Assembly (NCBI GenBank): GCA_903894955.1
Contig: CAITSA010000027.1
Coordinates: 1-54,044, forward strand
Length of the DNA stretch: 54,044 nucleotides
Source: an uncultured bacterium
Lineage (GTDB): Bacteria; Patescibacteriota; Minisyncoccia; Phycocordibacterales; UBA9973
Reading direction: 5' to 3'
In this document: positions 382 to 9,496 of the stretch, in pieces
Layout: each line of letters opens with the position of its first letter
Position numbering within the stretch: position 1 is the first letter of the stretch
Made by a program: the position numbers and the translations under genes
The notes under the pieces: generated by a model
What the model was told of the DNA's origin: nothing
The model's input: the letters and a program-made list of their open reading frames with translations, nothing else
Database searches by the model: none

Positions 382-942
382 TTATCTTATATGCTTCCTT
401 AACATCTTACTTACCTGATTAAGATTCGGAATTTGAAGTTTCACTAAATCCCAGAATTTCTTTGAATGGTTAAATTCTTTTAAATGGCATAATTCATGAA
501 CGATCAGATAATCTTGTAGTTCTTTCGGAAGAAAGATAATTTTATAGTTAAAATTAAGATTTCCTTTTTTAGAACAACTACCCCAGCGTGTCTTTTGATT
601 TTTAATAGATATTTTGTTGTAATGAAATTTATAAAATTGATTAAAATACTCAACTCTGTTTTTAACTAATTCAAGAGATATATCTTTATTTTTTATATAC
701 TCTCTTTTTGTACCCTTAAAAACAGCAATATTTTGTTTTAAATTAAAAAAATCAATTTTTTCCTTAATCCAACTAATTTTATTTTCAATAACAGATAAAA
801 TTCGTGAAAAAAGGACATTTTCCGGATACACTGCCACGACTGAACCATCACAATATACTGCTATGCGCATACGCTTAGCTTTTTTACTTTTTTTGATATC
901 AACAGTTATGTTTTGATTTTTTATTAAAAGTTTTCTTTTCAT
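382..942 (-). CDS. DUF45/YgjP-like HExxH zinc metallopeptidase, terminal gene of the type I R-M operon
   Basis: 186-aa ORF. WGSCSKKGNLNFNYKIIFLP...LIVHELCHLKEFNHSKKFW matches the DUF45/YgjP signature with HExxH. The start lies 2 nt after the hsdR stop. Confidence 0.75.
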   Translation of the reverse strand: MKRKLLIKNQNITVDIKKSKKAKRMRIAVYCDGSVVAVYPENVLFSRILSVIENKISWIKEKIDFFNLKQNIAVFKGTKREYIKNKDISLELVKNRVEYFNQFYKFHYNKISIKNQKTRWGSCSKKGNLNFNYKIIFLPKELQDYLIVHELCHLKEFNHSKKFWDLVKLQIPNLNQVSKMLRKHIR

Positions 943-944
943 AA

Positions 945-3863
945 TTAAAACTTCTTAAGAATTACATCAATTAATCTGTTTAAATACTTTTGAAAATCAC
1001 GAACCATTAGACTGTCTTTATATTCTTGTAAGAGCATTTGTTGAACCTGTCTCTTTATGTCTTTTAGAAAATCTTCTCTGCGAGCTGTGTCTTGCCAGCC
1101 TTCGTCAAGCAAATCGTTTAAATATAGAGCTAAATCAATTGAAAATTGCTTTAGCGAATCTTTTTCAATTTCTCTGACATATCCTTCTTCTTTGGAAAGA
1201 GAATAGAGCGCAAATTGTTCCATATTGAGACCTAAATCTTTTGCTTCAAGATCAACTTTCTTAATATCTCCTGCCAAGTTATATAGTTTTTTTAATGTCT
1301 CTTGTAGTGTCGTCTGTCGTTTTTCAAACTCTGTTTTAATAATCATTAATCTTTCAGAAAACTTTTTAAATATCGGACTAGTGTCTAGGTTTATTGAGAT
1401 TTCATAATTCAAAGCTCGTTCAAGCATTCTAGCTTTGTCTTCATCCTGATCTTTGTATTTTTCAAGTTCTGCGAACTGGTCAAGCCGAACCGGAGTATAA
1501 TTTTTTGTGATTCCTTCAAAATCTACCTTAGATTGAATAATTCCTTTTAGTTTTGAACCATATTCAGAAAGTAGAGCGTAAACATCTCTAGTGTCGACTT
1601 CAAATTCTTTTTTAAATGCTATATAAAAACAAGCAAACCATTCTATCTGTCTTGTAAACGGCAAGAGATATGGGTCTGGAGAAATTATTTCATAAAAGAG
1701 TTTCAATTTATTCCATCCTTCTTTAAAATCTTCTTGTTTTTCAGGATTATCTCTAAAAATTTCAAAACATTTTCGCAAGTTTTCCATTGACGGATTTTCT
1801 GTATTTATTCCTTTGAAAATACTATCTACTTTTTCAAAGCTGGTTTCAAATTCTTTTTTAATAGAATTCATATCTATCATTGATTCCGCTATCTCGTCTT
1901 CGTCAAAATCCAACGCATCTTTTAAATTTTTAGTGATTCCATAATAATCAATTATCAAACCATTTGATTTTTGCGGATATGTTCTATTTGTACGAGCTAT
2001 CGCCTGCAAAAGGTTGTGATGTTGCAGTGGCTTATCTATATACATCGCTTGTTCAACTGGAGCATCAAAACCAGTCAAAAGCATATCGCACACAAGCAAA
2101 AATTTAAGCGGTTGATTTTTATCTTTGAATTTCTTTATAACATCTTTTATTTCGTTCTTAGTTTTATTGTATTTACTAAGTTCTTCTGTGTCGGTATTTA
2201 CTTCACCCGGAGAATAAATAACCTCCGAATATTCTTTCGGCATTATTTGGTCAAAAATTTCTTTATATCTAGCTGTTGTCTCTCGATCATAGCAAACGAC
2301 TTGAGCCTTAAACCCCGCAGGGGCAACATAGGTATTGTAATGCTCATAGATATCTCTAGCCACAGCTTGCATTCTTTTTTCTAGTTTAGTAAAGGCTTGT
2401 TTTCTGCTGTATTTTTTAGAAAGTAAATCTTTTTGTTCTACTGACAAATCACTTGTCGACAAGTCAAACTGTGCGTCAACTTCTTTCTCGTCTATAGAAA
2501 ATTTTGATAGTCTTGCCTCGTACACCACCGGAACCGTCGCATTGTCTTCTATTGCTTGTTTTATTGAATAATAATCAAGATATCTCTCTGGGTTACCAGA
2601 AGTCAAAAGACCAAATTCTTCGTGTGTTTTAGATATAGGAGTACCGGTAAAGCCTATCATACTAGCGTTTGGTAAAGAATGTCTTAGATATATTCCTAGG
2701 CTTCCATATTGAGTACGGTGCGCTTCATCAATTAAAACAATAATGTTTGAAGCCTCATTTTTTATATCTTTAATATTTTCATCAAACTTGTGAACTGTTG
2801 AAATAAAAATCCCAGCTTCCGGAGAACTGACGACTTTGAGTAATTGTTCCCTTGATGTCACACGTTCAACATTTTCTCCTCCGCAGTTTATGAAAGTCTC
2901 AAAAATCTGATCGTCCAAATCAACTCTATCTACGAGTATAAAAATTTTAGGATTTTCTAAAAGTTTTTCATAGCGTAATTTCCACGCTGTGAAAAACATC
3001 GTCAAACTCTTTCCAGACCCTTGAGTGTGCCAAACAAGCCCTCTCTTATGCTTGCCTTCTTTTATTCGTTCAAAAATTTTATTAGTTGCTCGAAATTGCT
3101 GATATCGCGCGATTTTTTTTACCAAACCATCATCTGTGGCTTCAAAAACTATAAAATTTTGAATAATATCTAATAAATTACGTCCAGCCAAAAGCGCAAC
3201 AAGAGTGCTTTCCAGTTTTCCCTTATATTCTTCTTCAATTTCCTTATCTTTCCATTCTAGAAAACCTTGCTCCGGTGAATATGTTGTTCCATATACAGTT
3301 TTAATTCCATCTGTGGCTATATTAAAACAATTAGGAATAAAAAGACTTTTAGCATTTCGCTCATAACGCTTTATCTGCCCTATGGCAATAAAATAATCAA
3401 CTTGTTCGGAAGCTGTCGGGCTTTTTGCCTCAATATCAATTATCGGGATTCCGTTCAAGAAAATTAAAATATCTGGTCTAATATTTTCAGCATTTCCGGC
3501 AAAATAAAATTGATTAGTAACGACAAAATGATTGCTATCTACATTATCAAAATCCACAATCTTATAATTTTTTGTCTTACGAGTTTCAGAATCAATCAAG
3601 TCAACGCCATTTCTCATTAGCTCCAAAAATTCCTTATTGGTTTCAATTCCACGAATTATCTGAACAATATTCCTCATTTCACCGCTTTCAACTTTGCCAT
3701 TAATCCGGCGAATAGCATCCTGCAAAAGTGGTTCGGCAATATACTCATTCTCGTAATGTCGCAATTTATCAAAAATCTCCGGCTTAATGTATTCAAAACC
3801 AAGTTCTTTTTGAATAAATGTAATAATGTGATTTTCTATTGTATATTGTTCGTTGAATTTCAT
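945..3863 (-). CDS. hsdR: Type I restriction enzyme R subunit (nuclease-helicase)
   Basis: 972-aa ORF with an N-terminal D...ExK nuclease region (RPDILIFLNGIPIIDIEAK). SF2 motifs: HTQGSGKSLTM (Walker A), VLIDEAHRTQYG (DEAH), GFTGTP and LQAIARTNR. Confidence 0.93.
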   Translation of the reverse strand: MKFNEQYTIENHIITFIQKELGFEYIKPEIFDKLRHYENEYIAEPLLQDAIRRINGKVESGEMRNIVQIIRGIETNKEFLELMRNGVDLIDSETRKTKNYKIVDFDNVDSNHFVVTNQFYFAGNAENIRPDILIFLNGIPIIDIEAKSPTASEQVDYFIAIGQIKRYERNAKSLFIPNCFNIATDGIKTVYGTTYSPEQGFLEWKDKEIEEEYKGKLESTLVALLAGRNLLDIIQNFIVFEATDDGLVKKIARYQQFRATNKIFERIKEGKHKRGLVWHTQGSGKSLTMFFTAWKLRYEKLLENPKIFILVDRVDLDDQIFETFINCGGENVERVTSREQLLKVVSSPEAGIFISTVHKFDENIKDIKNEASNIIVLIDEAHRTQYGSLGIYLRHSLPNASMIGFTGTPISKTHEEFGLLTSGNPERYLDYYSIKQAIEDNATVPVVYEARLSKFSIDEKEVDAQFDLSTSDLSVEQKDLLSKKYSRKQAFTKLEKRMQAVARDIYEHYNTYVAPAGFKAQVVCYDRETTARYKEIFDQIMPKEYSEVIYSPGEVNTDTEELSKYNKTKNEIKDVIKKFKDKNQPLKFLLVCDMLLTGFDAPVEQAMYIDKPLQHHNLLQAIARTNRTYPQKSNGLIIDYYGITKNLKDALDFDEDEIAESMIDMNSIKKEFETSFEKVDSIFKGINTENPSMENLRKCFEIFRDNPEKQEDFKEGWNKLKLFYEIISPDPYLLPFTRQIEWFACFYIAFKKEFEVDTRDVYALLSEYGSKLKGIIQSKVDFEGITKNYTPVRLDQFAELEKYKDQDEDKARMLERALNYEISINLDTSPIFKKFSERLMIIKTEFEKRQTTLQETLKKLYNLAGDIKKVDLEAKDLGLNMEQFALYSLSKEEGYVREIEKDSLKQFSIDLALYLNDLLDEGWQDTARREDFLKDIKRQVQQMLLQEYKDSLMVRDFQKYLNRLIDVILKKF

Positions 3864-4594
3864 ATCTTTTTTGATAGTTCGCTAATAATTACTTTTGCAA
3901 AGTCAAGAAACACACGCTTAAAATTCTCATACTCTTCTTTTTCTAATTTTATTTCTTCCTTATCTTTATATTTAGTTTTATAGGTAGTATCTCTTACTTG
4001 GTTCAAAAAACCATGATCAACTTTACTATTATTGTGAACAATAATATTTCTCAAGGCTTCTCCAAGAATCATTAAATCTTTTCCGGAATCTTCTAATTCG
4101 ATATTTATACTCAAATATTCTTCAAAAAATCTTAGTGTACTTTTTAAATCTTGAAAATTTACTTCACCCTTTAGCGAAGTCAAAACTAATTCACCAACAG
4201 TTGGAGCAGAGTATCTTAATAAAGTTACATCCACGGGTAATTTTTTCTTTGATTCTGGCCAAGTTATAATACTTGGATATTTATCTATTATATTTTTTAC
4301 CAAACTATTTAAAAAAGACTCAAAATTTTCAACAATTAACACCAATGCTTGATTGTGAATAATTTCATATTTCTTTTTTAAAGATTTATGCTCTTTTATA
4401 TTACGGATTGTTTCAATTGTAGTATTTAATTTGTTTTTATACTCAAGAAAAGCAGGCATATTCTCATACTTCTTTTCTAAACCTTCCAGAAGTGAAACAA
4501 CTAAATTACCCACATCATCACCAATATTTATAATTTGATCTATCATTTTTAGATTCTCCTCAAAATTTTCTTTTACAGAATTTAAGTTTTCCAT
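3860..4594 (-). CDS. Uncharacterised helical protein with HEPN-like R-x4-H motif, inserted between hsdS and hsdR
   Basis: 244-aa ORF with an ATGA overlap with hsdR and a 1-nt overlap with hsdS. GEALRNIIVHNNSKVD (nt 4031-4057) gives R-N-I-I-V-H in the C-terminal third. The family call is tentative. Confidence 0.5.
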   Translation of the reverse strand: MENLNSVKENFEENLKMIDQIINIGDDVGNLVVSLLEGLEKKYENMPAFLEYKNKLNTTIETIRNIKEHKSLKKKYEIIHNQALVLIVENFESFLNSLVKNIIDKYPSIITWPESKKKLPVDVTLLRYSAPTVGELVLTSLKGEVNFQDLKSTLRFFEEYLSINIELEDSGKDLMILGEALRNIIVHNNSKVDHGFLNQVRDTTYKTKYKDKEEIKLEKEEYENFKRVFLDFAKVIISELSKKI

Positions 4595-5736
4595 TATTTT
4601 ACTCTGACTTTTCCGTTCAAGAGATCCGACATTAATCCCTTTTTTAATTGGATAAGTTTTTCTTTTAACTTTTTGTTAACTGTAATTTTTTCATCTACAC
4701 TCGAAAGAATTTCTGTAATTTTTTCTTGTTCAGGTTTTTTGGGAACAGCAAAAATAGCTTGTTCCAAATATTTAAAATGACGATTATATCCTGTGTTTGG
4801 TATATCTAGTTTTAATAATGAATAAAATAAAAATTTAGGATCATTTTCTTTTTTTGCCCAAATTATTTTAGTTCCATCATTTCCTAATACATAAGGAAAA
4901 TCTATATATTTTAGTATTCTTGTGTGGTCACCAAAAATTATTGTGGGGATTTTTTCTTGAAGCAAATCATTGCTATCTGTGTATCCTGTAATAAAACTTT
5001 GTGCTTGGTCAATTATTGGATATCTCCCTTGTTCTTTGTAATCAGACTTTTTTAACCCTTGTAATTTAGAAGCAACGTCAAAACAATCATTAAATGATTT
5101 TACTTGCCAATTTTCTGGAATTTCTCCAAGTTTTGTTTTTTTGAATTTAGTATGTCCAATACCTTTTGTTAAAAGCTCTTGCATTAAACCTGACTTTATT
5201 TTTCCAGTTTCCTCAATAATTTTCTCCGTCTTTTCAATATCTTCATCCACCTTACTTAAAATTTCAGCAATTTTTTCTTGCTCAAGTTTTAATTTCGGCA
5301 AACAAACAGGTAATTCCATCAATACTTCTTTATTTAATTTTTTCCTAGTTCCACCAGTTGTGTAAATATCTAAATTTACCCAATTTAAATATTGTTCAAG
5401 GTAAATATTAGAAGATAATCCTTTTGCTTTTAAGACATGCGCATGATTATTTACCCAACTTTTACCTTTTACAATAAAAGACTTATTAACGAATGGTAAC
5501 CAATCAGCACCGTCCTCCCCAATAACAAGAATTTCTTCGTCAAAAATAAAATCACCAACATAATCAATAATTCCGGTTGCACCATAATAAGGAATATCCC
5601 CAGAAACTCTGTCAGATTTAGTAATAGGGATTCTTCTATTGTCTAAGTTGTTGCATAAATTAGAAAGTGGTAATATTTGCCACCCATCCGGAATATTTTT
5701 TTCTTTTAAATTAATCATTTTATATACTAAAAACAT
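4594..5736 (-). CDS. hsdS: Type I R-M specificity subunit
   Basis: 380-aa ORF with two target-recognition halves. Each half is followed by a conserved helical spacer (LEQEKIAEILSKVDEDIEKTEKII...LMQELLTKG and PEQEKITEILSSVDEKITVNKKL...LMSDLLNGK). An alternative start, MINLKEK at 5718, lies 1 nt after the upstream stop. Confidence 0.9.
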   Translation of the reverse strand: MFLVYKMINLKEKNIPDGWQILPLSNLCNNLDNRRIPITKSDRVSGDIPYYGATGIIDYVGDFIFDEEILVIGEDGADWLPFVNKSFIVKGKSWVNNHAHVLKAKGLSSNIYLEQYLNWVNLDIYTTGGTRKKLNKEVLMELPVCLPKLKLEQEKIAEILSKVDEDIEKTEKIIEETGKIKSGLMQELLTKGIGHTKFKKTKLGEIPENWQVKSFNDCFDVASKLQGLKKSDYKEQGRYPIIDQAQSFITGYTDSNDLLQEKIPTIIFGDHTRILKYIDFPYVLGNDGTKIIWAKKENDPKFLFYSLLKLDIPNTGYNRHFKYLEQAIFAVPKKPEQEKITEILSSVDEKITVNKKLKEKLIQLKKGLMSDLLNGKVRVK

Positions 5737-6571
5737 TATTGCCTATATCTTTACTACATTCATCACAATAACTATTGTGACCATAATTAGATGCTGATAA
5801 CCAGTTTCTTGTAAATTGCTTTCCGCATTTTATACACTTTTGAGATCCCAAAGATGCCAAGCGTATCCCATTATTAAGTTCTGCGGAAGTAACTATATTA
5901 ATAGGCTCACTCAACACACTTGACCCCCAAACAACACCATGGGTTGATTGAGAACGATCTTTTTTTATTTCCTTAATTTGTTTTTCTAAATCACTAATTT
6001 TTTTCTTTAATTCCTGTTCAATTTTCTCATCATTTGCAGAAGCTAACTCTTTTCTCTTTTCAAGAAGTTCAATCATCACAGATTGTGCTGCATCTTTATA
6101 TTTCTTTTCAATTTCAGCTTCTTTTTCACTTTTTTCTTTTAATTCTGGGACAATATCTATCCAATCTGCTAAACCAGAAGCAATATTGAGTTCAATTGTT
6201 GAAATATGCCTATTAATTTCTTCTAATATATTTTTACCCTCTGTTTTTTTAGTTTTTTTTAAAAAATCATCAACCCAAATTTTTACATTACAAAGCTGTG
6301 TACTAATACCTTGTAGATTACGAAGGGCAGATCTTCCTTTCTTTTCTAAAATATTTTGCCCGACTATTTTTTCATAATCATCCTTTACAAAACTTCCAGC
6401 AAAACCAGCAAAGAAGCTCCCGAGAACAGTAAGCAATGTTGAAAAAAGAGTATTGTCTTTAAAAAAGTATGCAAAAATCAAACTTAATACAGTAAAAAGA
6501 CTAAAAATAGCAGCCCCAGGACTAGAGGTAACGTTCCAAAATATTTTCCACTTTTCTTTTTGAGTTTTCAT
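5720..6571 (-). CDS. Uncharacterised 2-TM / coiled-coil / C-terminal zinc-ribbon protein inserted between hsdM and hsdS
   Basis: 283-aa ORF with two hydrophobic helices (AAIFSLFTVLSLIFAYFF, LLTVLGSFFAGFAGSF) and a long Lys/Glu heptad-like stretch. The C-terminus has CIKCGKQF...17 aa...CDECS (CxxC...CxxC). I recognise no family. Confidence 0.6.
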   Translation of the reverse strand: MKTQKEKWKIFWNVTSSPGAAIFSLFTVLSLIFAYFFKDNTLFSTLLTVLGSFFAGFAGSFVKDDYEKIVGQNILEKKGRSALRNLQGISTQLCNVKIWVDDFLKKTKKTEGKNILEEINRHISTIELNIASGLADWIDIVPELKEKSEKEAEIEKKYKDAAQSVMIELLEKRKELASANDEKIEQELKKKISDLEKQIKEIKKDRSQSTHGVVWGSSVLSEPINIVTSAELNNGIRLASLGSQKCIKCGKQFTRNWLSASNYGHNSYCDECSKDIGNNVFSI

Positions 6572-6575
6572 TTTT

Positions 6576-8273
6576 CTAATATTTTAATTCTTTTAAATAC
6601 CCCTCGACTTTTTTGTTAATTTCTTCTTTTTCTTTCTCAATTTGCTTTAATTCTTTCCACACGACTGAAACATCAATTTTTTCCTCTATTTCCGATGAGT
6701 CAATGTATCGGCGAACATTTAAGTTATAATCATTTTCTTTTATCTCTTCTGCACTGATTACTCGTGCATATTTATTTATATCCTTCCAGTTATCAAAAGC
6801 AGAAGCAATTTTTTCTATATCTTGGTTACGAAGCGAGTTTTGATTTTTTCCTTCTTGATAATCACGCTCGGCATCTATAAACAGAATTTTATTCTTGTGA
6901 TTTGCCGGTTTTGTTTTATTTAAGATTAACAAGGCTACAGGAATACCTACTCCGAAGAAAAGCTTGGAAGGCATAGCGATAACTGCTTCTATTAAGTCAT
7001 TTTTTAAAACTTGTTCACGAATTCTGCCAGAAGTGTCGGATTTAAAAAGCACGCCGTGGGGCACAACAATACCGGCTTTGCCATTTTCGTTTAAAGATTT
7101 AATGATGTGGAGAATAAAAGCATAATCAGCATTTTTCTTTGGTGGGAGTTCATATCCATCTGTGCGAGCGTGTTTATCATGCACAAAAGTGTCCCATTCC
7201 CATTCTTTTATAGAATAAGGGAAGTTTGCAACAACGTGGGAAAAAGTCTGCATTTTTCCAGCTTTGTCTAGAAATTGAGGGTCTGCAAGAGTATCTCCTC
7301 GGCGGATGTCGGTACTTTCAAGTCCGTGCAAGAACATATTTATTTTTGCAATTCCGAAAGTTCCAATTTCTATTTCTTGGCCAGACAAGTACATCTTGCG
7401 AGCTTCTTTATCACTAAATTTTTCACGAACATAATGATAAGCTTCAAGTAGAAAACCTCCCGAGCCACAGGTCGGATCATGGACATGACTTTTTGCATCC
7501 GGTTTTATTATTTTCATTATTACTCTTTCAATTTCTCTCGGACTGTAGAACTGGCCTCCTTTTTTGCCGGAGTCGGAAGCAAATTGCTTTATAAGATATT
7601 CATAAGCATCACCGAGAATATCAGAATTTATATAAGTGTTTCCAAAATTATATTTTGAAAAATGATTTACAAGACGTTGAAGTGTTTCATTGGGAAAACG
7701 GTCTTTGTCAGCAAAATTTAAATTATTAAAAATTTTATCAAGCTTTGGACTATTGGCGGTAGTTATTTTATCAAAAACATCATTAAACTTTGCGCCTATG
7801 TTGATAGCTTCTTTCTGAATCTCAGACCAACGACAATCTTTAGGAACTTGAAATTTATGATTGTAATCTGCGTGAGCAAGTTCTTCGTCGTGAAATTTTT
7901 CTAAAATACTTTCATATTCTTCATCCCAGACATCACTTATTCTTTTATAAAATAGAAGTCCGAAAATATAAGTCTTGTAATCTCCACTATCAATTTTCCC
8001 TCGGAGAATGTCTGCGCTTTTCCAAAGAAAAGATTTAAGAACTTCAAGCGACATTTTTTCTTCTTTCTCCGGTGCATCTTTGTCTAAATTCATAACAGGA
8101 TGGGCTAATCCTTTATCAACTATTTTATTTATGATATCTTGTGTATATCTTCGGTCTTGCCTTTTACCCACGCGTAGAGGTTTGATAAGACCCTGGTCTT
8201 CCCAATTACGGAGAGTATCTTCATGAACGCCTAAAATTTTCGCTGCTTCTTTTATTGAATAATTATTGGTCAT
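6576..8273 (-). CDS. hsdM: Type I R-M N6-adenine DNA methyltransferase subunit with fused N-terminal MerR/excisionase-type HTH
   Basis: 565-aa ORF with the SAM motif DPTCGSGGFLLEA and the catalytic motif VVANFPYS (NPPY-like). The first ~55 aa (YSIKEAAKILGVHEDTLRNWEDQGLIKPLRVGKRQDRRY) look like a MerR/excisionase HTH. Confidence 0.93.
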   Translation of the reverse strand: MTNNYSIKEAAKILGVHEDTLRNWEDQGLIKPLRVGKRQDRRYTQDIINKIVDKGLAHPVMNLDKDAPEKEEKMSLEVLKSFLWKSADILRGKIDSGDYKTYIFGLLFYKRISDVWDEEYESILEKFHDEELAHADYNHKFQVPKDCRWSEIQKEAINIGAKFNDVFDKITTANSPKLDKIFNNLNFADKDRFPNETLQRLVNHFSKYNFGNTYINSDILGDAYEYLIKQFASDSGKKGGQFYSPREIERVIMKIIKPDAKSHVHDPTCGSGGFLLEAYHYVREKFSDKEARKMYLSGQEIEIGTFGIAKINMFLHGLESTDIRRGDTLADPQFLDKAGKMQTFSHVVANFPYSIKEWEWDTFVHDKHARTDGYELPPKKNADYAFILHIIKSLNENGKAGIVVPHGVLFKSDTSGRIREQVLKNDLIEAVIAMPSKLFFGVGIPVALLILNKTKPANHKNKILFIDAERDYQEGKNQNSLRNQDIEKIASAFDNWKDINKYARVISAEEIKENDYNLNVRRYIDSSEIEEKIDVSVVWKELKQIEKEKEEINKKVEGYLKELKY

Positions 8274-8396
8274 AGGGGTAGTATATACCTATTCGTTTCA
8301 AATGTCAAGTGTATTACACTTTTTCCTAACTCTTCCTATGTTGCTAACCTAGGAATAGGTAAAAGTTAATAGTTTTATTAATATAAGGTATTTGCC

Positions 8397-8987
8397 TTGT
8401 TTAAATATATGCTACAATACCCATATATGTCCGACGAACCATTAAATAACGAGCAAATAGAGCCTTCTAGCCCATTACCCATAAATACAATGGGTTCTGA
8501 GCCTATTAATATGCCCCCTGAAGCCCCAGAATCCCCTAAAAACGCAGAGATACCCGTTTCCCTCAATAATGATAATCCAGAAAATGAGCCTATTTCCACC
8601 CCTAGCCCCGAGGAAGCCATCCCATTAGAATCAACGGATCTGCCAGCAAATCCTGCTTCAAACGGAACAAATGAACCCTTGGTTGAGCCAGTTTCCGAAA
8701 CCCGAACGGCTCAAGTACCAGTAAATGAGCCGTTGGTGAAAATATCTCTCGCTCGTGAACTTCTCGTTAAAGCTAGAAATATGATTCAATTTCGAAAAAG
8801 AAAGAAATTAGATCGTGTTATGACTTTGTTTTTGAAAAAATCTAAAATTACAAATGACGAAGTTAGAGAATTTTTGCACGTATCGGATGCAACGGCTGAA
8901 AGATATTTAAATGCTTTAGAAAAAGAAAATAAAATTAAACAAACCGGAAAAACTGGGCACTCGGTATTTTATCAAAAAGTAATATAA
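8397..8987 (+). CDS. Pro/Glu-rich protein with C-terminal winged-helix DNA-binding domain
   Basis: 196-aa ORF with a low-complexity N-terminal half. The C-terminus ITNDEVREFLHVSDATAERYLNALEKENKIKQTGKTGHSVFY looks like a DeoR/MarR-style wHTH. The true start is uncertain (Met at 8397, 8409 and 8427). Confidence 0.55.
   Translation: MFKYMLQYPYMSDEPLNNEQIEPSSPLPINTMGSEPINMPPEAPESPKNAEIPVSLNNDNPENEPISTPSPEEAIPLESTDLPANPASNGTNEPLVEPVSETRTAQVPVNEPLVKISLARELLVKARNMIQFRKRKKLDRVMTLFLKKSKITNDEVREFLHVSDATAERYLNALEKENKIKQTGKTGHSVFYQKVI
8702..8737. repeat. 36-nt hairpin-forming element inside the wHTH gene, inverted copy of 9777-9812
   Basis: ccgaacggctcaagtaccagtaaatgagccgttggt. The reverse complement of 9777-9812 matches at 34 of 36 positions by my manual alignment. 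Confidence 0.8.
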
Positions 8988-8998
8988 TTTATTTATTT

Positions 8999-9496
8999 AT
9001 GAAATGGGTCGCTATCGCCGGAGCTTGGAGAAAAACAAATAAGCAAGTCGAAGAAGACGTCAGAAAAACGGTTAAAGAAATAATTTCTCAAAGAAACGGA
9101 ATAATATCCGGCGGAGCTTTGGGAGTTGACTATTTTGCAACCGATGAAGCCTTGAAACTTGGCTGTGATTCAAAACAAATTAAAATTTTTATTCCCTCAA
9201 CTCTTGAAATTTATAAAACTCATTATTTTAATCGAGCCAAAGAAGGAGTTGTAACAGAAGAACAGGTAAAATCTCTTATTGCTCAATTAGAAAAAATAAA
9301 AGAGCTGAATGCATTAGTAGAAGGAAAAGATATTATTTTAAATAAAGAAATATATTTCAATAGAATTACGGAAATTATTAAAAATGCCGATGAATTGGTT
9401 GCTTTTCATGTAAATAAAACCGAAGGAACCCAAGACACGATTGATAAAGCAAACAAGAAAGGGATTTCTGTTAAGATATTTGAATATTCTATCTAA
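8999..9496 (+). CDS. SLOG/DprA-like Rossmann-fold protein (predicted nucleotide binding)
   Basis: 165-aa ORF. VAIAGAWR...GIISGGALGVDYFATDEAL resembles the GGxxGxD loop of DprA/YpsA/LOG-type SLOG domains. Tentative. Confidence 0.45.
   Translation: MKWVAIAGAWRKTNKQVEEDVRKTVKEIISQRNGIISGGALGVDYFATDEALKLGCDSKQIKIFIPSTLEIYKTHYFNRAKEGVVTEEQVKSLIAQLEKIKELNALVEGKDIILNKEIYFNRITEIIKNADELVAFHVNKTEGTQDTIDKANKKGISVKIFEYSI

What the first reader, a model, noticed from the sequence alone, without database searches (positions are those of the whole stretch)
5720..6571. Membrane-anchored coiled-coil protein with C-terminal zinc ribbon inside the R-M operon
Seen: two N-terminal hydrophobic helices, about 120 aa of heptad-like Lys/Glu sequence (EKEAEIEKKYKDAAQSVMIELLEKRKELASANDEKIEQELKKKISDLEKQIKEIKK), then CIKCGKQF...CDECS. 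Inference: the topology puts a nucleic-acid or protein-binding zinc ribbon in the cytoplasm, tethered to the membrane. That would suit a sensor-effector that permeabilises the membrane, or a scaffold localising the R-M complex. I cannot assign any family.
Basis: inference. Interest (0 to 1): 0.6.

Follow-up and report, generated by a model that had tools for sequence, protein, structure and literature searches.

The report
Unnamed membrane protein embedded in restriction operons
A real, conserved but unnamed membrane protein with a zinc ribbon sits between the methylase and specificity genes of this restriction-modification operon; relatives occupy the same slot in at least five kinds of restriction system, so it is probably an optional add-on defence gene, but nobody has tested what it does.

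Summary
The ORF is real. It lies at window 5720-6571 on the minus strand (283 aa), between hsdM and hsdS of a six-gene type I R-M operon.

**Architecture.** It has a two-helix membrane hairpin with both ends in the cytoplasm, about 150 residues of helical hairpins, a disordered linker and a C4 zinc ribbon. The AlphaFold2 mean pLDDT is 87.

**Family.** Pfam, NCBIfam, PADLOC and PHROGs give no credible match. It still belongs to a sizeable family: 321 representative clusters, all metagenomic "hypothetical" proteins, mostly Patescibacteria. The conserved core is the membrane hairpin plus the first cytoplasmic hairpin, not the zinc ribbon.

**Context.**
- Of 60 non-redundant loci, 37 lie in R-M operons of five kinds.
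- The gene usually sits directly upstream of the S gene.
- A distant branch lies outside defence contexts.

**Optional and mobile.**
- It occurs in 1 of 400 sampled genomes of the phylum, against 44 with an HsdM homologue.
- The closest related R-M operon found in the genome sample carries other genes in its slot.
- Its similarity pattern does not follow that of M, S or R.

**Best reading (about 0.4).** It is a cargo-type backup defence gene that acts on the membrane, with the logic of PrrC or RonA. Function is untested.

The scan has reported this same family before on other DNA (e1-2033527, e1-1543214, e1-3840778).

The parts
8280..8308 (-). Promoter-like site (TTGACA-17-TATACT, 11 of 12 matches) just upstream of the hsdM start codon; probable operon promoter
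   Evidence: This is a consensus match only: the total number of promoter-like sites in the region equals the number expected from shuffles.
6576..8273 (-). hsdM, the type I N6-adenine DNA methyltransferase, with an N-terminal MerR-type HTH
   Evidence: N6_Mtase 2.4e-103, HsdM_N 1e-25, MerR_1 6e-11. MTase_I 3e-127.
5720..6571 (-). The finding: a 283-aa membrane / helical-stalk / zinc-ribbon protein (called T here). It starts 4 nt after the hsdM stop. Its stop lies 1 nt before, or 17 nt inside, the hsdS start, depending on which ATG hsdS uses.
6386..6517 (-). Membrane hairpin: TM1 (residues 19-36), a 5-residue loop, TM2 (residues 42-62). TM2 carries a conserved stripe of small residues at S52, A55, G56, G59 and S60.
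   Evidence: The G/A/S/T fraction is 0.89-1.0 at positions 52, 55, 56, 59 and 60. G59 is kept in 127 of 139 representatives.
6143..6385 (-). Conserved cytoplasmic core: the first helical hairpin (residues 63-143), with near-invariant [KR]78-G79-x-S81-A82-x-R84-N85-L86, E118 and W137-x-D139-x-x-P142
   Evidence: AF2 pLDDT is 93-98 over this stretch.
5930..6142 (-). Second helical hairpin (residues 144-214), Lys/Glu-rich and coiled-coil-like, moderately conserved
   Evidence: It draws spurious coiled-coil matches in Pfam, PADLOC and PHROGs.
5843..5929 (-). Variable, low-confidence linker (residues 215-243)
   Evidence: pLDDT below 50 for residues 216-240. (poorly aligned).
5723..5842 (-). C-terminal C4 zinc ribbon (C246, C249, C269, C272) with a short, mildly basic tail
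   Evidence: Mean net charge is +1.6 in the 98 members that have the motif.
4594..5736 (-). hsdS, the specificity subunit
   Evidence: Methylase_S 5e-35. (Specificity_I 2e-54).
3860..4594 (-). ORF244, a second passenger gene with no library match. It contains an R-x4-H spacing (RNIIVH). It is not a fixed partner of T.
945..3863 (-). hsdR, the restriction subunit
   Evidence: SWI2_SNF2 4e-71, HSDR_N 6e-33. (REase_I 1e-138).
382..942 (-). YgjP-like metallopeptidase, which commonly trails hsdR in these type I operons
   Evidence: YgjP-like 6e-38. It is also present in L007-L010, L024, L025 and L041.

Best explanation
T is an optional, horizontally exchanged cargo gene of restriction-modification operons.

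**Shown.**
- It encodes an inner-membrane protein.
- An N-terminal two-helix hairpin anchors it in the membrane.
- A conserved helical core, a second helical hairpin, a flexible linker and a zinc ribbon all face the cytoplasm.

**Inferred, not shown.**
- It is a second-line (abortive-infection or backup) defence module working alongside restriction.
- At rest the cytoplasmic stalk keeps the membrane hairpin inactive.
- A cue linked to failed or overwhelmed restriction releases it. The cue could be an anti-restriction protein, phage DNA at the membrane, or loss of the M-S complex. It would be sensed through the variable linker and zinc ribbon, or through contact with the co-translated M-S proteins.
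- The hairpins then oligomerise through the small-residue face of TM2 and depolarise the membrane, stopping phage growth.

This is the logic of PrrC with EcoprrI and of RonA with HsdMS in Ronin, carried out by an unrelated and much larger protein.
For: **Real and conserved.** 84 close homologues and 321 representative clusters were found, with near-invariant polar motifs. Only 1 of 60 copies is frameshifted.

**Topology and fold.** AF2 gives pLDDT 87, with both ends in the cytoplasm by the positive-inside rule.

**TM2 face.** A conserved face of G/A/S/T sits at positions 52, 55, 56, 59 and 60, and Ser/Thr at 44 and 48. From general knowledge, such faces drive helix oligomerisation in pinholins and channels.

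**Context in 60 non-redundant loci.**
- 20 type I loci.
- 12 BcgI-like loci (nuclease-MTase plus S).
- 3 with an N6_N4 Mod (one with Res).
- 1 with EcoRI-MTase plus GmrSD/HNH.
- 1 with an Eco57I-like MTase plus Tsp45I.
- Further copies sit beside AbiTii or near SMODS+SLATT_4.
- By Pfam, the upstream neighbour is N6_Mtase in 18 of 45 loci and the downstream neighbour is Methylase_S in 22 of 40.
- Gaps to both neighbours are mostly under 10 nt or overlapping.

**Cargo behaviour.**
- Similarity of T between loci tracks M, S and R poorly (Spearman 0.32, 0.25, 0.14).
- The core subunits track each other (M-S 0.78, M-R 0.68, S-R 0.68).
- Known defence-island passengers (RhuM, Fic/DOC, Bro-N, RadC-like) share the slot.
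- The gene is rare and patchy.

**Precedents.** RonA is a small TM effector held in check by HsdMS and released by Ocr/ArdA (bioRxiv 10.1101/2023.04.06.535777). Genes embedded in type I R-M, BREX and DISARM are enriched for defence functions (bioRxiv 10.1101/2024.01.29.577857).
Against: - No experiment exists, and there is no homology to any known effector, pore former or sensor.
- The most conserved part is a polar cytoplasmic motif cluster whose role is unknown. A plain pore former would not need it.
- The gene accompanies methyltransferases of three unrelated families. Direct caging by one partner, as for RonA, is therefore unlikely to hold in all contexts.
- A distant branch (about 25% identity) and short forms lacking the C-terminal half lie in non-defence neighbourhoods.
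- The small-residue stripe could equally serve intramolecular packing of TM1 against TM2.
- Position in a general cargo slot does not by itself show functional coupling to R-M.
Confidence: 0.4

Rival explanations
1. T is a membrane tether or recruiter. It holds the M-S or R-M complex, or incoming DNA via the zinc ribbon, at the cytoplasmic face of the membrane, so that restriction acts where foreign DNA enters. It does not kill the cell.
For: - T sits between M and S, nearly always directly upstream of S and tightly packed with it, in both type I and BcgI-like operons.
- A long cytoplasmic stalk ends in a mildly basic zinc ribbon on a flexible linker.
- From my own knowledge, not checked here: membrane association of EcoKI-type enzymes has been reported, and Kiwa is a membrane complex that captures entering phage DNA.
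- Patescibacteria depend on DNA uptake, which would make the entry site a sensible place for R-M.
Against: - Most type I systems in the phylum lack T (44 of 400 genomes have an HsdM homologue, 1 of 400 has T).
- T is swapped between R-M lineages with little co-variation with M, S or R.
- It accompanies five architectures with unrelated methyltransferases, some without any S subunit.
- 9 of the 37 R-M-linked members lack the zinc ribbon; two of these are cut by a contig end.
- No similarity to HsdS was found.
Confidence: 0.2
2. T is a stand-alone membrane defence, either superinfection exclusion (an injection block) or an autonomous Abi. It only hitchhikes in the cargo slot of R-M operons for expression and co-transfer, and has no functional link to restriction.
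For: - The M-S and S-R junctions hold many unrelated passengers (RhuM, Fic/DOC, Bro-N, unknowns).
- Earlier notes from this scan list DUF2130, OLD, HEPN and PIN-like genes in the same slot.
- T's history is independent of the R-M core.
- Some copies sit beside other defence genes: AbiTii, and SMODS+SLATT_4.
Against: - Linkage to R-M is strong (37 of 60 loci, five kinds). Where S exists, T almost always directly precedes it, even when other cargo is present.
- No homologue was found in the viral contig collection or in PHROGs, where exclusion genes usually reside.
Confidence: 0.15
3. T is not an immune gene. It could be a housekeeping or regulatory membrane protein (for example envelope- or stress-related), or a selfish stabilising element, recruited to some R-M operons.
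For: - A distant branch has conserved synteny with a metalloenzyme, an IS200-like gene and Lnt.
- Other copies lie next to Ddl/UvrC, glycosyltransferase and response-regulator genes, CobA, a cation-efflux gene, or dnaK/grpE.
- The core motif is conserved across all contexts.
Against: - The gene is very rare and patchy.
- It is absent from same-genus genomes.
- The close subfamily to which the window's gene belongs is overwhelmingly R-M-embedded.
Confidence: 0.1

Closest known systems
RonA of the Ronin system (E. coli ECOR55; Silas et al., bioRxiv 10.1101/2023.04.06.535777)
   Same: It is a membrane protein encoded tightly next to hsdS and hsdM. RonA is lethal alone, is silenced by HsdMS and is released by anti-restriction proteins. 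This is the best functional analogy for a membrane protein in this slot.
   Different: RonA is 61 aa with one predicted TM helix and no cytoplasmic domain. Ronin lacks hsdR (it is a decoy R-M). T is 283 aa with two TM helices, a conserved stalk and a zinc ribbon. T sits in complete R-M systems, and also with BcgI-like, type III-like and type II systems. Sequence relatedness could not be tested because no RonA sequence was at hand.
PrrC / RloC anticodon nucleases embedded in type I hsd loci
   Same: They are accessory genes nested inside a type I R-M operon that provide backup immunity when restriction is blocked (named). They are optional and laterally mobile.
   Different: PrrC and RloC are soluble ABC-ATPase plus HEPN-type RNases. 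T has no ATPase or nuclease domain and is membrane-anchored.
'Guilt-by-embedding' defence candidates (Payne et al., bioRxiv 10.1101/2024.01.29.577857)
   Same: This is the same general phenomenon: genes nested in type I R-M, BREX, DISARM and Hma systems are enriched for new defence functions.
   Different: That paper's text contains no occurrence of 'transmembrane' or 'membrane', so no membrane family like T is described there. T's family is almost entirely from uncultivated Patescibacteria metagenomes.
Class II holins / pinholins, and 2TM effectors such as SLATT
   Same: They share a two-helix hairpin with both ends in the cytoplasm and a small-residue face on a TM helix. This rests on general knowledge of pinholin S21 and of SLATT effectors.
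   Different: - No sequence relation was found: there are no holin or SLATT hits in Pfam for 139 members.
- hhalign probability against one SLATT_4 protein is 3%.
- T is not phage-encoded.
- T carries a cytoplasmic extension of about 220 residues.
HP0958 / CT398-type coiled-coil hairpin plus C4 zinc ribbon proteins
   Same: The C-terminal half of T is also an antiparallel helical hairpin followed by a C4 zinc ribbon. The family profile hits CT398 (PDB 4ilo) at E 7.7e-4.
   Different: The hit is weak, is probably driven by composition, and was not recovered with the closer alignment A1. Those proteins are soluble and lack T's conserved core.

Membership tests
PrrC/RloC anticodon nucleases | N-terminal ABC-type ATPase domain | tested here: not met
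   No ATPase family hit in Pfam or NCBIfam. The model is all-helical hairpins.
PrrC/RloC anticodon nucleases | C-terminal HEPN-type RNase with an R-x4-6-H motif | tested here: not met
   No HEPN hit. The R121-H122 pair is adjacent, not an Rx4-6H spacing.
PrrC/RloC anticodon nucleases | Embedded in a type I hsd operon | tested here: met
Ronin RonA | Small (about 61 aa) single-TM protein | tested here: not met
   T is 283 aa with two TM helices plus a cytoplasmic domain. RonA is as described.
Ronin RonA | Linked to hsdS and hsdM in a locus lacking hsdR | tested here: not met
   hsdR is present in the window and in L001, L002, L007-L010, L024, L025, L041, L045 and L046.
Ronin RonA | Toxic alone, silenced by HsdMS, triggered by Ocr/ArdA | not testable with these tools
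   Needs expression experiments.
SLATT 2TM effectors | Sequence or profile match to a SLATT family | tested here: inconclusive
   No SLATT family appears among the 25 families most often hit by the 139 members at E<=0.1. hhalign against a single SLATT_4 protein gives probability 3%.
SLATT 2TM effectors | Association with SMODS/SLOG nucleotide-signalling genes | tested here: not met
   Only L005/L032 has SMODS+SLATT_4 nearby, and there the SLATT is a separate gene.
Holins (class II / pinholin) | Phage lysis-cassette gene of about 70-100 aa | tested here: not met
   No hit in viral contigs or PHROGs. T is 283 aa and lies in an R-M operon.
Holins (class II / pinholin) | Two TM helices, N-in and C-in | tested here: met
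   (charge distribution and hydropathy)..
Zinc ribbon (Pfam Zn_ribbon_8 and related) | CxxC...CxxC in a short beta-hairpin element | tested here: met
   Four Cys are kept in about 100 of 139 members. Zn_ribbon_8 is hit by 11 members, best E 2e-6. Short strands are modelled at residues 243-254. Metal binding itself was not tested.
Type I R-M core subunit (an obligatory fourth subunit) | Present wherever the R-M system is present, and co-inherited with M, S and R | tested here: not met
   T is in 1 of 400 genomes against 44 of 400 with an HsdM homologue. It is replaced by other genes in G142 C58. Spearman T-M 0.32, T-S 0.25 and T-R 0.14, against 0.68-0.78 among the core subunits.
Alpha-pore-forming toxins of the XaxA/YaxB (ClyA-like) kind | Significant sequence or fold match | tested here: inconclusive
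   NCBIfam alph_xenorhab_A gives E 0.0055 at 16 bits against a cut-off of 125. YaxB gives Z 9.8 but rmsd 8.2 A over 131 residues, below the stated noise level for helical models.

The most novel reading that the evidence does not exclude
T founds an undescribed class of restriction-coupled membrane checkpoint proteins. It would be a membrane-anchored stalk that reads out DNA entry or the integrity of M-S-type methyltransferase complexes through its zinc ribbon or core. It would answer by depolarising the cell, and it could plug into at least five R-M architectures. This would be the main backup immunity of CRISPR-poor ultra-small bacteria.
Probability: 0.2. Interest if true: 0.75.

Novelty: new variant of a known kind. 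Interest (0 to 1): 0.5.

Why it matters
Patescibacteria have tiny genomes and few recognised defences beyond R-M. A recurrent, conserved and confidently modelled membrane protein that travels between R-M operons is a concrete candidate for their missing second line of immunity.

If it proves to be an R-M-coupled membrane effector, the PrrC/Ronin principle (backup killing when restriction is neutralised) would gain a new protein family, and its coupling to type I systems would extend to type IIB-like, type III-like and type II systems. The family would also deserve a model in Pfam, PADLOC or DefenseFinder.

If it proves to be a tether, it would give a genetic handle on the old question of where in the cell restriction acts.

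Tried and rejected
**Library searches.**
- Pfam, NCBIfam, PADLOC and PHROGs on the protein gave only sub-threshold coiled-coil noise: UvrD_C, LmuB, an SMC-related family and tape-measure proteins.
- Scanning 139 family members against Pfam added only zinc-ribbon families and coiled-coil noise.

**Structure searches.**
- Foldseek against PDB and BFVD gave nothing at E<=0.001.
- The VIA-align wide search gave generic 70-residue helical hairpins at Z about 10 (ESCRT-III/Snf7, bMERB, designed bundles). That is below the noise level stated for helical models, so no fold assignment was made.
- PDB sequence-profile searches gave the XPA zinc finger and coiled-coil proteins only.

**Specific ideas tested.**
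- XaxA/YaxB pore-toxin lead: too weak.
- SLATT relationship: hhalign probability 3%.
- Mimicry of the HsdS coiled coil: hhalign probability 0.5%.
- Fused, longer forms: none found.
- Phage-borne copies: none in viral contigs.
- A fixed partner gene: none. The neighbours cluster into many small unrelated families, and the S-R slot passengers do not align with each other.
- Compositional anomaly of the operon: none.

**Other.**
- The ESM Atlas did not hold the query. Homologue P0057 gave only sub-0.9 leads and zinc-ribbon look-alikes.
Genomic context therefore comes from the search for related loci and the genome search, with my own simple longest-ORF calls labelled by BLAST against Pfam-checked references.
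- Alignment A2 was too diverse for the search for related loci, so A1 was used instead.
Full report
**1. What is there.**
Window 5720-6571 holds an intact 283-aa ORF on the minus strand, starting with ATG. It is the second gene of a six-gene minus-strand cluster:
- hsdM with an N-terminal MerR-type HTH (6576-8273);
- the ORF, here called T;
- hsdS (4594-5736);
- an unassigned 244-aa ORF (3860-4594);
- hsdR (945-3863);
- a YgjP-like metallopeptidase (382-942).

T starts 4 nt after the hsdM stop. It ends 1 nt before, or 17 nt inside, hsdS, depending on which ATG hsdS uses. A near-consensus promoter-like site lies just upstream of hsdM, at 8308-8280. No terminator-like hairpin lies on the minus strand between hsdM and hsdS.

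**2. Anatomy of the protein.**
AlphaFold2 run with a 139-sequence alignment gives mean pLDDT 87, and above 90 for residues 1-200. The elements are:
- a short N-terminal helix (4-15);
- TM1 (18-36) and a four- to five-residue loop;
- TM2 (from 41), which continues as one helix to residue 106;
- a return helix (110-137);
- a second hairpin (142-178 and 182-212);
- a disordered linker (216-240);
- a small zinc-ribbon element (243-280).

Both hydrophobic segments are conserved family-wide (mean Kyte-Doolittle 2.16 and 1.83). Lys+Arg counts are 4.1 before TM1, 0.7 in the loop and 4.1 in the 19 residues after TM2. By the positive-inside rule, both ends are cytoplasmic.

TM2 carries a conserved face of small residues. 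The G/A/S/T fraction is 0.89-1.0 at positions 52, 55, 56, 59 and 60, and G59 is kept in 127 of 139 sequences.

The zinc ribbon with its tail is mildly basic, at +1.6 on average.

**3. It is a real family without a name.**
Pfam, NCBIfam, PADLOC and PHROGs give only sub-threshold coiled-coil noise.

The word-indexed search found 84 proteins, with E-values from 1e-121 down to 2e-35. All are 180-300 aa. Where named, all are "hypothetical protein". They come from Paceibacterota, Gribaldobacteria, Nomurabacteria, Daviesbacteria, Parcubacteria, and one Melioribacteraceae.

The exhaustive search of cluster representatives found 321 at E<=1e-3. Ten distant representatives are metagenome singletons or doubletons without names.

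The most conserved part is not the zinc ribbon. It is the membrane hairpin plus the first cytoplasmic hairpin: W8, P18, G59, [KR]78-G79-x-S81-A82-x-R84-N85-L86, E118, and W137-x-D139-x-x-P142. In the model's helix register, the 78-86 and 136-143 motifs should face each other across the first hairpin. This is an inference, because no coordinates were available. The four cysteines are kept in about 100 of 139 representatives.

**4. Where the family lives.**
I therefore fetched 23 loci from GTDB species genomes and 52 from metagenomes. I called ORFs myself and labelled them against references checked with Pfam.

After collapsing near-identical copies, 60 loci remain:
- 20 are type I operons, drawn from three HsdM lineages.
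- 12 have a 650-aa HSDR_N_2-nuclease/N6_Mtase protein plus a separate S protein of about 450 aa. I read this as a BcgI-like type IIB arrangement from its domains. These loci are usually preceded by a LexA-like gene.
- 3 have an N6_N4 methyltransferase, one of them with a Res helicase.
- 1 has an EcoRI-type methylase and a GmrSD/HNH enzyme.
- 1 has an Eco57I-like methylase and a Tsp45I endonuclease.
- Others sit beside AbiTii, or two genes from SMODS+SLATT_4.

Independent Pfam tallies support this. The immediate upstream neighbour is N6_Mtase in 18 of 45 loci, and the downstream neighbour is Methylase_S in 22 of 40. Where an S gene exists, T nearly always directly precedes it, with a gap under 10 nt or an overlap. 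This holds even when other passengers lie between M and T.

Not all members are defence-linked:
- A branch at about 25% identity has the conserved neighbourhood metalloenzyme - T - IS200-like gene - Lnt.
- The only other hit in the phylum sample (G142) lies beside a RAYT-like gene and dnaK/grpE/hrcA.
- Short forms without the C-terminal half sit next to glycosyltransferase and response-regulator genes.

**5. It is optional, mobile cargo, not a core subunit.**
In 400 other genomes sampled evenly from the phylum, 44 have an HsdM homologue at E<=1e-60. Only one has any T relative. The two same-genus genomes have neither.

G142 contig 58 is the closest R-M relative in the genome sample, with HsdM 68% and HsdR 57% identical. 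In place of T it has a 281-aa and a 148-aa ORF in the M-S slot, and a 293-aa ORF in the S-R slot. Other passengers of these slots are RhuM, Fic/DOC, Bro-N and RadC-like proteins. No passenger co-occurs regularly with T.

I compared 22 loci pairwise by bit score per residue:

| Pair | Spearman correlation |
|---|---|
| M-S | 0.78 |
| M-R | 0.68 |
| S-R | 0.68 |
| T-M | 0.32 |
| T-S | 0.25 |
| T-R | 0.14 |

The core subunits co-vary with each other, and T does not co-vary with them. For example, the T closest to the window's (L024) sits behind an HsdM of another lineage, and a fairly close T (L004) sits in a BcgI-like system. The pairs are not independent, so these are descriptive numbers, not tests.

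No copy was found in the viral contig collection. No fused longer form was found.

**6. What it resembles.**
- Foldseek found nothing in PDB or BFVD.
- The exhaustive structural search returned only generic helical hairpins at Z about 10. This is below the tool's stated noise level for helical models.
- PDB profile searches found the XPA zinc finger, and weakly CT398, a coiled-coil hairpin plus zinc ribbon.
- Neither SLATT nor HsdS is detectably related.

**7. How it most likely works.**
Three things are shown:
- It is a cytoplasm-facing, membrane-anchored helical protein.
- It is tightly embedded in R-M operons of several kinds.
- It is optional and laterally exchanged.

The rest is inferred. 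It is a second-line defence gene of the "embedded" kind. Embedded genes in type I R-M, BREX and DISARM are enriched for defence functions (bioRxiv 10.1101/2024.01.29.577857). The closest worked example is RonA, a small membrane protein next to hsdS/hsdM that kills when anti-restriction proteins engage HsdMS (bioRxiv 10.1101/2023.04.06.535777).

I propose that the conserved stalk keeps the hairpin quiescent, and that a cue tied to failing restriction lets the hairpins oligomerise through the small-residue face of TM2 and depolarise the membrane. I give this about 0.4.

Three points count against it. The conserved polar core has no assigned role. The accompanying methyltransferases are too diverse for one direct caging partner. 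A non-defence branch exists.

The rivals are:
- a non-lethal membrane tether for R-M or incoming DNA (0.2), weakened by dispensability and by the lack of co-variation;
- an autonomous membrane defence that merely hitchhikes in the slot (0.15);
- a non-immune membrane function (0.1).

**8. Novelty.**
The phenomenon of an accessory gene nested in an R-M operon is known. The protein family is not in any library searched, and I found no paper describing it.

This scan has already reported the same family on other DNA, with similar conclusions: e1-2033527, e1-1543214 and e1-3840778. I reached the same descriptive result independently.

New here are the confident model, the motif map, the TM2 small-residue face, the frequency estimate, the decoupling of T from the R-M core, and the distant non-defence branch.

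I class it as a new variant of a known kind, with interest 0.5.

Noticed in passing
L004, L011, L013, L018, L049, L056 (and L047), upstream of the 650-aa nuclease-methyltransferase gene: BcgI-like R-M operons in Patescibacteria MAGs consist of an HSDR_N_2 nuclease fused to N6_Mtase plus a separate S gene. They are regularly preceded by a LexA-like gene (LexA DNA-binding domain plus S24 peptidase). This suggests SOS-type or C-protein-like control of an R-M operon.
   Followed up: partly
L066, L069, L071, L075; L108 5741-7255 (G142 contig 22): Distant family members (about 25% identity) lie next to IS200-like Y1/RAYT-type genes in two different arrangements. Both are outside any R-M context: one is beside Lnt, the other beside dnaK/grpE/hrcA.
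   Followed up: partly
L109 455-1835 and 2913-3794 (G142 contig 58); L009 5865-6803; L002 2311-3453; L010 8464-9285: The M-S and S-R junctions of this type I lineage act as cargo slots. In different genomes they hold RhuM, Fic/DOC, Bro-N-like and unknown genes.
   Followed up: partly
window 3860-4594 (-): The 244-aa ORF between hsdS and hsdR matches no library. It contains an R-x4-H spacing (RNIIVH), which would fit a HEPN-like RNase. Proteins in the same slot of related operons do not align with it convincingly.
   Followed up: partly
window 8109-8273 (-); also 3 of 45 upstream neighbours of T homologues: HsdM of this lineage carries an N-terminal MerR-type HTH. This is unusual for a type I methyltransferase.
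   Followed up: no
window 8280-8308 (-): A near-consensus sigma-70-type promoter-like site (TTGACA-17-TATACT) lies immediately upstream of hsdM.
   Followed up: no
window 8397-9496 (+): A winged-helix protein and a short DprA/SLOG-like protein are encoded divergently, next to the R-M operon.
   Followed up: no
L059 200-1118: The T homologue on this short, low-coverage metagenome contig is split by a frameshift. It is the only disrupted copy among the 60 non-redundant loci, and it may be an assembly error.
   Followed up: partly
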